Position numbers and translations under genes: made by a program
Assembly (NCBI GenBank): GCA_009914755.4
Contig: CP086569.2
Span: forward strand, 20,512,001-20,576,000
DNA length: 64,000 bases
Direction of reading: 5' to 3'
From: the human T2T-CHM13v2.0 reference genome, Homo sapiens
Notes under the pieces: model-generated
The model's database searches: none
What the model saw: only the letters and a program-made list of their open reading frames with translations
Told to the model about the DNA's origin: nothing
Shown here: positions 59,981 to 62,915 of the stretch, in pieces
How the letters are laid out: every line of letters starts with the position of its first letter
How positions within the stretch are numbered: position 1 is the first letter of the stretch

Positions 59981-61236
59981 ATGGATGAATTGAAAGAAGT
60001 AGGATTCAGAACATGGGAACTGACAAACTTTGCTGAACTAAAAGTTCTAACCCAATGCAAAGAAGCTAAGAACCATGATAAAAACATTCCAGGACCTGTT
60101 ATCCAGAATAACCAGTTTAGACAGAAACATAAATGGGCTGATGAAGCTGAAAAACACAAGAAAAAAACTTTACAATGTAACCATAAGTATCAATAGCAGA
60201 ATAGACAAAGTGGAGGAAAGAATTTCAGAACTTAAAGATTGCCTTGCTGAAATAAGGCAAGCAAGATTAGAGAACAAAGAATGCAAAAAAAAAAAAAAAA
60301 AAAAGCTTTACAATGCACCATAAGTATCAATAGCAGAATAGAGAAAGTGGAGGAAAGAATTTCAGAACGTAAATATTATCTTGCTGAAATAAGCAAACAA
60401 GATTAGAGAATAAAGAATGAAAAGGAATGAACAAAACCTCTGAGAAATTTGGGATTATGTATTAATAAAAAGACAAAACTTATGACTGATTGGGGTATGC
60501 GAAAGAGACAGGAAGAATGGAACCAATTTGGAAAACATACTTCAGAATGCAATCCAGGAGAACTTCCCCAACCTAACAACACAGATCAACATTCAAATTT
60601 CAGAAATCCAGAGAACCCTAGTAGGATAATCCATAAGAAGATCCACCCCAACATGCATAATCATCAGATTCTCCAAGGTTGAAATGAAAGAAGAAATGTT
60701 AAGCGTAGCCAGAGAGAAAGGCCAGATTACCTTCAAAGGGAAGCCCATCAGACTAACAGCAGAACTCACAGCAGAAACCCTACAAGACAAAAGAGACTAG
60801 GGGAAAATATTCAACATTCTTACAAAAGAATTTCCAATCCAGAATTTCATACCTGGTCAAACCAAGTTTCAAAAGAGAGGGAGAAATAAGATTCTTTTAG
60901 ACAAGAAATTGCTCAGGGAATCCATTACCAGACCTTCCTTGCAGAAGCTCCTGAAGGAAGCAATGAATATGGAAAGGAATAACCACTACCAGCCACTAAT
61001 AAAACACATGAAAGTACACATATCAATGACACTATGAAGCAACTACATTAACAAGTCTATAAAATAACCAGCTAGGATCTTGATGACAGGATCAAATTCA
61101 CGCATAATAATAATAACCTTAAATGTAAATGGGCTGAATGTCCCAAGTGTAAGATACAGAATGACAACCTGGATAAACTGTCAAGACACATCAGTGTGCT
61201 ATATGAGACACCCATCTCACATGTAAAGACACACAT
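59981..61236 (+). mobile_element. Old L1 (L1PB/L1MA-like), part 1: ORF1 (with an internal tandem duplication) and ORF2 start, split by a young L1 insertion
   Basis: ORF1-like MDELKEVGFRTWELTNFAELK... from 59981. ORF2 start [47 protein letters not shown] at about 61085-61236. The same element continues at 62916. Confidence 0.8.
60167..60420 (+). repeat. 118-bp tandem duplication within L1 ORF1, the two copies separated by a 20-nt poly(A)
   Basis: Copy 1 is 60167-60284 (ctttacaatgtaaccataagtatcaatagcagaatagacaaagtggaggaaagaatttcagaacttaaagattgccttgctgaaataaggcaagcaagattagagaacaaagaatgc). Then (A)20 at 60285-60304. Copy 2 is 60305-60420 (gctttacaatgcaccataagtatcaatagcagaatagagaaagtggaggaaag...). 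Confidence 0.85.
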
Positions 61237-62906
61237 TGATTTGCATTTCTCTGATGGCCAGTGATGATGAGCATTTTTTCATGTGTTTTTTGGCTGCATA
61301 AATGTCTTCTTTTGAGAAGTGTCTGTTCATGTCCTTCGCCCACTTTTTGATGGGGTTGTTTGTTTTTTTCTTGTAAATTTGTTTGAGTTCATTGTAGATT
61401 CTGGATATTAGCCCTTTGTCAGATGAGTAGGTTGTGAAAATTTTCTCCCATTTTGTGGGTTGCCTGTTCACTCTGATGGTAGTTTCTTTTGCTGTGCAGA
61501 AGCACTTTAGTTTTATTAGATCCCATTTGTCAATTTTGTCTTTTGTTGCCATTGCTTTTGGTGTTTTAGACATGAGGTCCTTGCCCATGCCTATGTCCTG
61601 AATGGTAATGCCTAGGTTTTCTTCTAGGGTTTTTATGGTTTTAGGTCTAACGTTTAAGTCTTTAATCCATCTTGAATTGATTTTTGTATAAGGTGTAAGG
61701 AAGGGATCCAGTTTCAGCTTTCTACATATGGCTAGCCAGTTTTCCCAACACCATTTATTAAATAGGTAATCCTTTCCCCATTGCTTGTTTTTCTCAGGTT
61801 TGTCAAAGATCAGATAGTTGTAGATATGTGGTGTTATTTCTGAGGGCTCTGTTCTGTTCCATTGATCTATATCTCTGTTTTGGTACCAGTACCATGCTGT
61901 TTTGGTTACTGTAGCCTTGTAGTATAGTTTGAAGTCAGGTAGTGTGATGCCTCCAGCTTTGTTCTTTTGGCTTAGGATTGACTTGGTGATGTGGGTTCTT
62001 TTTTGGTTCCATATGAACTTCAAAGTAGTTTTTTCCAATTCTGTGAATAAAGGCATTGTTAGCTTGATGGGGATGGCATTGAATCTGTAAATTACCTTGG
62101 GCAGTGCAACCACAATCAGATACCATCTCACACTAGTTAGAATGGCAATAATTAAAAAGTCAGGAAACAACAGGTGCTGGAGAGGATGTGGAGAAATAGG
62201 AACACTTTTACACTGTTGGTGGGACTGTAAACTAGTTCAACCATTGTGGAAGTCAGTGTGGCGATTCCTCAGGGATCTAGAACTGGAAATACCATTTGAC
62301 TCAGCCATCCCATTACTGGGTATATACCCAAAGGACTATAAATCATGCTGCTATAAAGACACATGCACACGTATGTTTATTGCGGCACTATTCACAATAG
62401 CAAAGACTTGGAACCAACCCAAATGTCCAACAATGATAGACTGGATTAAGAAAATGTGGCACATATACACCATGGAATACTATGCAGCCATAAAAAATGA
62501 TGAGTTCATGTCCTTTGTAGGGACATGGATGAAATTGGAAATCATCATTCTCAGTAAACTATCGCAAGAACAAAAAACCAAACACTGCATATTCTCACTC
62601 ATAGGTGGGAACTGAACAATGAGATCACATGGACACAGGAAGGGGAATATCACACTCTGGGGACTGTTGTGGGGTGGGGGGAGGGTGGAGGGATAGCATT
62701 GGGAGATATACCTAATGCTAGATGACGAGTTAGTGGGTGCAGCGCACCAGCATGGCACATGTATACATATGTAACTAACCTGCACAATGTGCACATGTAC
62801 CCTAAAATTTAAAGTATAATAATAAAAAAAAATTTTAAAAAAAAGTGACAGCAAGAAAAAAAACAGTAAAAAAAAAAAAGTCAAAAAAAAAAAAAAAAAA
62901 AAAAAA
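61237..62906 (+). mobile_element. Very young L1 (L1HS/L1PA2-like) twin-primed insertion: inverted ORF2 segment (61237-62106, minus) plus co-linear ORF2 C-terminus, 3'UTR and patterned poly(A) (62107-62906, plus), flanked by a perfect 12-bp TSD
   Basis: TSD aaagacacacat at 61225-61236 and again at about 62904-62915. The inverted segment encodes an open 317-aa ORF2 piece (ORF 61217-62170(-): ...[15 protein letters not shown]...[30 protein letters not shown]). The co-linear segment encodes an open 172-aa ORF2 C-terminus (ORF 62097-62615: ...[63 protein letters not shown]...SLIGGN). The junction lies at adjacent L1 positions (...gaaatgcaaatca | aaccacaatcagatac...). The 3'UTR is near-identical to the young-L1 consensus. 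The tail is interrupted: (A)n gtgacagcaag (A)n cagt (A)n gtc (A)n. Confidence 0.9.
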
Positions 62907-62915
62907 GACACACAT

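What the first reader, a model, noticed from the sequence alone, without database searches (positions are those of the whole stretch)
61225..62915. Very young twin-primed L1 (L1HS/L1PA2-like) with intact 12-bp target-site duplication, nested in an old L1
- The target site aaagacacacat occurs at 61225-61236 and again right after the poly(A) at about 62904-62915. The flanking old-L1 ORF2 reading frame (...[10 protein letters not shown]|WLQTKR...) is restored exactly when the insert is removed.
- The insert has the textbook twin-priming architecture. An inverted segment (ORF2 codons about 700 to about 1010, 61237-62106) is joined at adjacent L1 coordinates to a co-linear segment (ORF2 codon about 1013 to the 3' end plus poly(A), 62107-62906).
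- Both ORF2 pieces are open (317 and 172 aa) and near-identical to the young human L1 consensus. No other repeat in the window is this pristine.
- The insertion point (TGT|AAAG on the top strand) fits the L1 endonuclease TT|AAAA preference.
- An element this undiverged with perfect TSDs could be lineage-specific or even polymorphic in humans.
Basis: partly seen in the sequence, partly recalled or inferred. Interest (0 to 1): 0.55.

Follow-up and report, generated by a model that had tools for sequence, protein, structure and literature searches.

The report
Ordinary twin-primed L1PA2-like LINE-1 insertion

Summary
A perfect direct repeat flanks the insert: AAAGACACACAT, extendable to 14 bp (AAAGACACACATTG), at 61225-61238 and 62904-62917.

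- **Architecture.** Between the repeats lie an inverted L1 piece (61236/7-62105), 2 filler bases, a co-linear L1 piece (62108-62823) and an A-rich tail.
- **Adjacency.** Against a real L1HS-Ta copy (L081) the pieces map to positions 2103-2972 and 2973-3707, so they abut exactly. This is the twin-priming signature.
- **Host.** Removing the insert and one repeat copy restores a colinear alignment of an old host L1, in stitched reading frames, to ORF2p residues 1-141.
- **Corrections.** The inverted piece is ORF2 codons about 818-1106, not 700-1010. The inner junction lies at 62105/62108.
- **Subfamily.** It is not L1HS: the 3'UTR diagnostic is GAG (62727-62729), not ACA or ACG. It is 97.6% identical to the L1HS copy, carries 15 of 19 L1HS-lineage derived states, and has about 27 private substitutions (1.7%, in a neutral pattern). 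That makes it L1PA2-like, roughly 8-17 Myr old.
- **Polymorphism.** It is very probably fixed, not polymorphic in humans.
- **Open ORFs.** They are unremarkable (P about 0.28 by chance).

About 20% of L1 insertions carry such 5' inversions, so interest is low. No Dfam/Repbase consensus and no orthologous primate locus could be tested.

The parts
61225..61238 (+). 5' copy of the target-site duplication. AAAGACACACAT is certain; the following TG is identical in both copies, so the repeat is up to 14 bp. The left AAA could instead be read as tail A's in the 3' copy.
   Evidence: D7: 14 nt, 100% identical, only two exact copies in the window.
61236..62105 (-). Inverted L1 segment, the reverse complement of ORF2 codons about 818-1106 (L081 positions 2103-2972). 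It has no poly(A) or duplication of its own. Bases 61236-61238 (TTG) are shared with the target (microhomology).
   Evidence: ORF2p 818-1106, E = 1e-186. (97.59% over 870 nt to L1HS copy L081, minus strand). (open on the minus strand).
62106..62107 (.). Two bases (GC) at the inversion junction that match neither L1 segment. Read as filler added when the two cDNA ends were joined.
   Evidence: The L1 copies have CAT on the inverted side. The BLAST matches to L081 stop at 62105 and restart at 62108, which places the AAAA run on the co-linear side.
62108..62615 (+). Co-linear L1 segment, coding part: ORF2 codons about 1107/1108-1275 with its stop codon TGA at 62613-62615.
   Evidence: ORF2p 1107-1275, E = 1e-112. 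(L081 2973 onward, 97.4%)..
62616..62823 (+). L1 3'UTR. It carries the subfamily-diagnostic trinucleotide GAG at 62727-62729 (ACA in L1HS-Ta, ACG in pre-Ta) and otherwise L1HS-like derived states.
   Evidence: The meaning of the diagnostic is from PMC7026601.
62824..62906 (+). Tail: A9 (62824-62832), a 50-nt complex A-rich stretch (62833-62882, contains AGTAAA), then a pure A run of 24 (62883-62906). The last 3 A's overlap the duplication.
62904..62917 (+). 3' copy of the target-site duplication (AAAGACACACAT + TG).
61083..61224 (+). Host (old) L1, left flank: start of ORF2 (MTGSNS...) up to the insertion point at about codon 54. The nick site on the bottom strand reads 5'-CTTT/AC-3' (top strand TGT|AAAG).
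   Evidence: the host's stitched conceptual translation aligns to ORF2p residues 1-141 once the insert is removed..
62918..64000 (+). Host (old) L1, right flank: ORF2 continues from about codon 56. It is about 78% identical to L1HS DNA and runs off the end of the window.
   Evidence: 63104-64000 = L081 1-907, 77.9%..

Best explanation
A 5'-truncated LINE-1 RNA of the L1PA2 type, the subfamily just before human-specific L1HS, was inserted once by target-primed reverse transcription into the endonuclease-coding part of a much older L1. The product has since decayed neutrally for roughly 8-17 million years.

Shown:
- One 12-14 bp target-site duplication brackets the whole insert.
- The 3' part is co-linear and ends in an A tail.
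- The 5' part is inverted.
- The end of the inverted part that touches the upstream duplication abuts, in L1 coordinates, the start of the co-linear part.

Inferred mechanism (twin priming):
1. ORF2p nicked the bottom strand at 5'-CTTT/AC-3'. The T-rich 3' end primed cDNA synthesis from the poly(A) tail.
2. The top strand was cut 12-14 nt downstream. Its 3' end (...CATTG) annealed by 1-3 nt (TTG:CAA) to the RNA inside ORF2, at ...AUCAAAACC.
3. That end primed a second cDNA running toward the RNA 5' end, for 870 nt.
4. The first cDNA stopped exactly at the annealing point.
5. The two cDNA ends were joined with 2 filler bases (GC).

The element has no present function. It is a dead fragment split across two strands.
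For: - **Duplication.** A 14-nt perfect direct repeat sits at the two ends, with only two exact copies in 64 kb.
- **Single collinear match.** The concatenated rc(61237-62108) + 62109-62830 aligns as one HSP to normal L1 copies.
- **Adjacency.** BLAST to L1HS copy L081 gives 2103-2972 (inverted) and 2973-3707 (co-linear), with no gap and no overlap. ORF2p residues are 818-1106 and 1107-1275.
- **No internal repeat.** No inverted repeat links the two pieces, as expected when they do not overlap.
- **Host restored.** The host's stitched translation aligns to ORF2p residues 1-141 after excision in silico.
- **Same age.** Private substitutions number 18/868 and 9/714 in the two pieces (Fisher p = 0.25).
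- **Subfamily.** The diagnostic is GAG, not ACA. PMC7026601 states that GAG indicates L1PA2 or older. The copy has 15 of 19 L1HS-derived states. The four it lacks are the ACA triplet and one further site. It ranks with the highest non-L1HS copies; the three with similar or higher fractions are truncated before the 3'UTR diagnostics.
- **Age.** There are 27 private substitutions in 1584 nt (1.70%; 1.41% outside CpG; 5 of 13 CpGs lost). They split 17 nonsynonymous to 8 synonymous, against a neutral expectation of 75% nonsynonymous.
- **Frequency of the architecture.** 5' inversions occur in 18-22% of L1 insertions (PMC12016303).
Against: - No curated L1HS, L1PA2 or L1PA3 consensus was available. 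The subfamily name rests on one genuine L1HS-Ta copy and 23 unlabelled L1 copies recovered from contaminated metagenome assemblies.
- One or two 'private' sites (Q positions 276 and 570) may be source-lineage variants, so the age is approximate.
- The nick site CTTT/AC matches only 4 of 6 positions of the TTTT/AA consensus.
- The microhomology is only 1-3 nt.
- The species of the window is unknown, and no orthologous locus was examined.
Confidence: 0.85

Rival explanations
1. It is a human-specific L1HS-age insertion, or a late insertion from a long-lived GAG-type source, and may be polymorphic in humans.
For: - The duplication is perfect and the terminal A run of 21-24 is pure.
- Both ORF2 pieces are open.
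- It shares nearly all L1HS-lineage derived states.
Against: - The diagnostic is GAG, not ACA or ACG (PMC7026601).
- It carries 27 private substitutions (1.7%) in a neutral 17:8 nonsynonymous-to-synonymous pattern, and has lost 5 of 13 CpGs.
- No non-reference L1PA2 insertion was found in a long-read human genome (PMC7026601).
- Open ORFs are expected by chance with P = 0.28.
Confidence: 0.03
2. It is the same twin-primed insertion but belongs to L1PA3 (or a transitional L1PA3/2 lineage) and is about 12-17 Myr old, shared with orangutan.
For: - Private divergence of 1.7% (1.4% outside CpG) is at the high end for L1PA2.
- No curated consensus was available to separate L1PA2 from L1PA3.
Against: - It has 15 of 19 L1HS-derived states. 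The next full-length rung of copies has only 42-53%.
- It shares states at Q positions 1389, 1412 and 1551 with L1HS that almost none of the other sampled copies carry.
Confidence: 0.12
3. The architecture did not arise during integration. Either two independent L1 insertions landed side by side, or part of an ordinary 5'-truncated L1 was inverted later.
For: None specific. The final DNA arrangement alone cannot formally exclude a later inversion.
Against: - A single duplication pair brackets both pieces.
- The inverted piece lacks a 3' end, a poly(A) and its own duplication.
- The pieces abut exactly in L1 coordinates, 2972|2973.
- The two pieces have equal divergence.
- A later inversion would need one breakpoint exactly at the L1/target boundary.
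Confidence: 0.02

Closest known systems
Twin-primed (5'-inverted) LINE-1 insertions (Ostertag & Kazazian 2001 model)
   Same: - One target-site duplication pair, an inverted 5' segment and a co-linear 3' segment with poly(A).
- The priming end of the inverted cDNA adjoins the end of the co-linear cDNA in L1 coordinates.
- Short microhomology at the internal priming site and filler bases at the inner junction.
- This architecture is found in 18-22% of L1 insertions (PMC12016303).
   Different: Nothing essential. The two cDNAs here abut with a 0-1 nt gap. Many cases show an overlap instead (median overlap 12 bp where the cDNAs overlap; PMC12016303).
L1PA2 subfamily of primate LINE-1
   Same: - GAG at the 3'UTR diagnostic site.
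- Otherwise L1HS-like 3'UTR and ORF2 states.
- About 1.7% divergence from the inferred progenitor.
- L1PA2 is described as having amplified before the human-chimpanzee split and as essentially non-polymorphic, with 4917 reference copies (PMC7026601).
   Different: Membership was not tested against the curated consensus. Divergence is toward the upper end of what I recall for L1PA2, which is my own knowledge and was not verified here.
L1HS (Ta / pre-Ta), the active human L1
   Same: 97.6% DNA identity to a genuine ACA-bearing copy (L081), and 15 of 19 lineage-derived states shared.
   Different: - It lacks the defining ACA or ACG trinucleotide, having GAG instead.
- It lacks a further L1HS 3'UTR change at Q position 1440.
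- It has 27 private substitutions.

Membership tests
LINE-1 insertion made by target-primed reverse transcription | Sequence is L1 (ORF2 and 3'UTR homology) | tested here: met
   (ORF2p, E = 1e-186 and 1e-112). (97.4-97.6% to an L1HS copy).
LINE-1 insertion made by target-primed reverse transcription | 3' poly(A) tail directly followed by a target-site duplication of about 7-20 bp that also precedes the 5' end | tested here: met
   A24 run at 62883-62906. A 12-14 bp perfect repeat at both ends.
LINE-1 insertion made by target-primed reverse transcription | First-strand nick at an L1 endonuclease site (5'-TTTT/AA-3' and close variants) | tested here: inconclusive
   The bottom strand reads 5'-CTTT/AC-3'. 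The TTT/A core is present and 4 of 6 consensus positions match. It is not one of the three motifs counted in PMC12016303 (TTTT/A, TTTT/G, TTTC/A).
LINE-1 insertion made by target-primed reverse transcription | Precise insertion: the host sequence is continuous when the insert and one duplication copy are removed | tested here: met
   The host L1 aligns to ORF2p residues 1-141 with no gap at residues about 50-60. The query was stitched across the host's frameshifts.
Twin-priming 5' inversion | Inverted 5' segment and co-linear 3' segment inside one duplication pair; the inverted segment has no poly(A) or duplication of its own | tested here: met
Twin-priming 5' inversion | The L1 coordinate at the target-proximal end of the inverted segment adjoins (with a small gap or overlap) the 5' end of the co-linear segment | tested here: met
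   L081 2103-2972 against 2973-3707. One or two A's of an AAAA run are unassigned.
Twin-priming 5' inversion | Microhomology between the top-strand target 3' end and the internal L1 priming site | tested here: inconclusive
   T, or TTG, is shared between target and L1 at 61236-61238. One to three nucleotides is compatible but also likely by chance.
Twin-priming 5' inversion | Both segments derive from one RNA (same subfamily and same age) | tested here: met
   Private substitutions 18/868 against 9/714, Fisher p = 0.25. Identity to L081 is 97.6% and 97.4%.
L1HS (Ta or pre-Ta) | ACA (Ta) or ACG (pre-Ta) at the 3'UTR diagnostic trinucleotide | tested here: not met
   GAG at 62727-62729, against ACA in L081. 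Definition from PMC7026601.
L1PA2 | GAG at the diagnostic site together with otherwise L1HS-like derived states | tested here: met
   15 of 19 L1HS-derived states. Among the highest fractions of the non-L1HS copies; the three with similar or higher fractions are truncated before the 3'UTR diagnostics.
L1PA2 | Best match to the curated L1PA2 consensus (Dfam/Repbase) over L1PA3 and L1HS | not testable with these tools
   No repeat-consensus library was available. The supplement held for PMC9252281 is a single 11-kb PDF that I listed but did not open, and Khan et al. 2006 is not held.
L1PA2 | Insertion shared by human, chimpanzee and usually gorilla, and absent from Old World monkeys | not testable with these tools
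   No primate genome could be searched by locus. Exact-ORF look-ups found nothing.

The most novel reading that the evidence does not exclude
The GAG-type element could be a late, lineage-specific or still-polymorphic insertion from a long-lived L1PA2-like source. The 50-nt complex stretch in its tail (62833-62882) would then be a 3' transduction that tags that source locus.
Probability: 0.04. Interest if true: 0.25.

Novelty: already known. Interest (0 to 1): 0.08.

Why it matters
It matters little beyond annotation. It is a clean textbook example of twin priming, with exact abutment of the two cDNAs, 2 filler bases and an intact duplication, and could serve as a teaching case or a phylogenetic presence/absence marker among great apes. 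It does not bear on any open question. About one L1 insertion in five has this form, and L1PA2 copies number in the thousands.

Tried and rejected
- **Protein database search.** Searching the junction-spanning 317-aa ORF in the 5.8-billion-protein database found only other primate L1 fragments (at most 96% identity) and no same-locus hit.
- **Exact-ORF look-ups.** Both ORFs returned nothing on record, so no orthologous or identical locus could be fetched.
- **Curated consensi.** Khan et al. 2006 and Ostertag & Kazazian 2001 are not held. The only supplement held for PMC9252281 is a short 11-kb PDF, which I did not open.
- **Pattern scans.** A young-L1 3'UTR pattern gave no hit in viral contigs and only one hit in bacterial genome contigs (L081).
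- **Rfam.** A scan of the whole window found nothing.
- **Tail stretch.** The complex tail stretch was not found in the 81 fetched loci or elsewhere in the window, so the 3'-transduction idea stays untested.
- **Mutation cluster.** Private mutations appear clustered near the inner junction (7 in Q positions 50-122). I judged this unremarkable, because two are CpG transitions and the two segments do not differ significantly in mutation density.
- **A31 run.** The run at 56933-56963 looked like another young insertion. It is an expanded internal A-rich stretch of an older L1.
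Full report
**1. Observation**

AAAGACACACAT occurs exactly twice in the window, at 61225-61236 and 62904-62915. The repeat finder independently reports a 14-nt perfect direct repeat, AAAGACACACATTG, at 61225-61238 and 62904-62917 (D7).

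The two ORFs exist: 61217..62170 on the minus strand (317 aa) and 62097..62615 on the plus strand (172 aa).

**2. What the two pieces are**

Both ORFs match the solved human LINE-1 ORF2 protein.
- The minus-strand piece aligns to residues 818-1106 (E about 1e-186).
- The plus-strand piece aligns to residues 1107-1275, the C-terminus (E about 1e-112).

The key claim, that the pieces meet in L1 coordinates, is right.

To test adjacency at the DNA level I needed real L1 references.
- I fetched 80 L1 copies that sit as human contamination in metagenome assemblies.
- I fetched one genuine L1HS-Ta copy carrying the ACA diagnostic from a contaminated MAG (L081). Its ORF2 C-terminal 459 residues are 98% identical to the PDB L1 ORF2p.

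The artificial sequence rc(61237-62108) + 62109-62830 aligns to normal L1 copies as a single collinear HSP. BLAST of L081 on the window gives:
- L081 2103-2972 = window 62105 to 61236 (97.59%).
- L081 2973-3707 = window 62108 to 62842 (97.41%).

The two pieces abut exactly, 2972|2973.
- Base 61236, the last base of the 12-bp repeat, matches both target and L1. Bases 61237-61238 do the same, giving a TTG microhomology.
- Bases 62106-62107 (GC) match neither piece and are filler.
- No inverted repeat links the two pieces, as expected when they do not overlap.

**3. Host**

The insert sits in a plus-strand old L1. I removed 61237-62915, stitched the host's three reading frames together by hand across its frameshifts and stops, and searched with the result. 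The stitched translation aligns to ORF2p residues 1-141 with no gap at the insertion point...THLTCKDTH|WLQTKR... against ...THLTCRDTH|RLKIKG....

Host DNA downstream is only about 78% identical to L1HS. All other L1 fragments in the window are 66-91% identical to L081, so this insert is the least diverged L1 in the window.

**4. Mechanism**

What is shown:
- One duplication pair brackets the whole insert.
- The 3' part is co-linear with an A tail.
- The 5' part is inverted and has no tail or duplication of its own.
- The two parts abut exactly in L1 coordinates.
- The two parts have equal divergence (18/868 against 9/714 private substitutions, Fisher p = 0.25).

This is the defining architecture of twin priming, a variant of target-primed reverse transcription. 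Such 5' inversions are seen in 18-22% of L1 insertions (PMC12016303).

The inferred steps are:
1. The bottom strand was nicked at 5'-CTTT/AC-3' (top strand TGT|AAAG). The TTT/A core fits the TTTT/AA preference, and 4 of 6 positions match.
2. The T-rich end primed on the poly(A) tail.
3. The top strand was cut 12-14 nt downstream. Its ...CATTG-3' end annealed to CAA in ...AUCAAAACC... of the L1 RNA.
4. That end primed 870 nt of a second cDNA.
5. The first cDNA stopped exactly at that annealing point.
6. The ends were joined with 2 extra bases.

A later inversion or two independent insertions are far less parsimonious. They would need a breakpoint exactly at the L1/target boundary, or an insertion without a 3' end.

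**5. Subfamily and age**

The 3'UTR diagnostic trinucleotide is GAG (62727-62729). L081 has ACA at that position. According to PMC7026601, ACA marks L1HS-Ta, ACG marks pre-Ta, and GAG indicates L1PA2 or older. The element is therefore not L1HS.

Of the 36 mismatches against L081:
- About 27 are private to the window copy, meaning L081 agrees with the older copies there.
- About 8 are L1HS-derived states that the window copy lacks.

I polarised 19 sites where L081 differs from the oldest group of sampled copies. The window copy has 15 L1HS-like states. The four it lacks are the ACA triplet and one further 3'UTR site.

The sampled copies form a graded ladder of L1HS-like fractions: 0, 0.05, 0.2-0.26, 0.42-0.53, about 0.8-0.9, and 1.0. 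The window copy sits on the rung just below L1HS. The three copies with similar or higher fractions (L002, L012, L008) are truncated before the 3'UTR diagnostics. That position in the ladder is where L1PA2 would fall.

The private divergence is as follows:
- 27 of 1584 sites overall, or 1.70%.
- 1.41% outside CpG.
- 5 of 13 ancestral CpGs lost.

In the coding part, the private changes are 17 nonsynonymous to 8 synonymous, against a neutral expectation of 75% nonsynonymous. They look like post-insertion decay.

At generally quoted primate neutral rates of 0.1-0.2% per Myr (my own knowledge, not tested here), this gives roughly 8-17 Myr. PMC7026601 notes that L1PA2 amplified before the human-chimpanzee split, has 4917 reference copies, and yielded no non-reference insertions in a long-read human genome. 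Polymorphism in humans is therefore very unlikely.

The open reading frames are not a sign of extreme youth. With 25 random substitutions, the chance of no stop codon is 0.28.

**6. Limits**

- No Dfam or Repbase consensus and no primate genome could be queried, so the label L1PA2 (as opposed to late L1PA3) and the phylogenetic distribution remain inferences.
- The single L1HS reference (L081) differs at 9 of 459 residues from the PDB ORF2p. At least one site I counted as private (Q position 570, Ala to Asp) agrees with the PDB L1HS protein. The private count is good to within about 2.
- The species of the window is unknown.

**7. Verdict**

This is a real, cleanly resolved, but entirely ordinary twin-primed L1PA2-like insertion nested in an old L1. 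It is an already known kind, probably already annotated in any RepeatMasked genome as two opposite-strand L1PA2 fragments. Interest is low.

Noticed in passing
window 62833-62882: Between the L1 3' end plus A9 and the final pure A24 lies a 50-nt complex A-rich stretch: TTTTAAAAAAAAGTGACAGCAAGAAAAAAAACAGTAAAAAAAAAAAAGTC. It is 66% A and carries an AGTAAA hexamer about 13 nt before the last A run. It has too many non-A bases for a tail that is only about 1.7% diverged. It may be a short 3' transduction from the source locus. It was not found in the 81 fetched loci or elsewhere in the window.
   Followed up: partly
window 56933-56963: A pure A31 run inside an older plus-strand L1 (56334-57758, 83% identical to L1HS). 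It is an expansion of the internal A-rich ORF2 stretch (the ...IYKKKTNN... region), not the tail of a new insertion.
   Followed up: yes
window 52156-53368 (minus strand): Two ORFs (164 and 151 aa) read like retroviral pol (integrase and RNase H region), which suggests an endogenous retrovirus fragment. This is judged from the translation only and was not searched.
   Followed up: no
window 19027-22396, 26255-27118, 35401-38971 (all minus strand): Three further sizeable L1 fragments, 88-91% identical to the L1HS copy (older L1PA-type). Two retain ORF2 N-terminal ORFs of 146-152 aa. The window is very L1-dense.
   Followed up: partly
window 60150-60423: A 137-bp unit duplicated in tandem (2.0 copies, 89% matches), starting with an A18 run. 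It lies just upstream of the ORF1-like part of the host L1.
   Followed up: no
L081 (PIVJ01000160.1, 'MAG: Bacteroidetes bacterium') and L001-L080: A 3.7-kb contig of a published bacterial MAG is a human L1HS-Ta element with flanking DNA. Dozens of metagenome contigs (human gut, marine) are primate L1 copies, which is host or human contamination in public assemblies. L081 carries ACA but keeps several pre-Ta-1 amino-acid states (R, M, A, KD, M, I) relative to the PDB ORF2p.
   Followed up: partly
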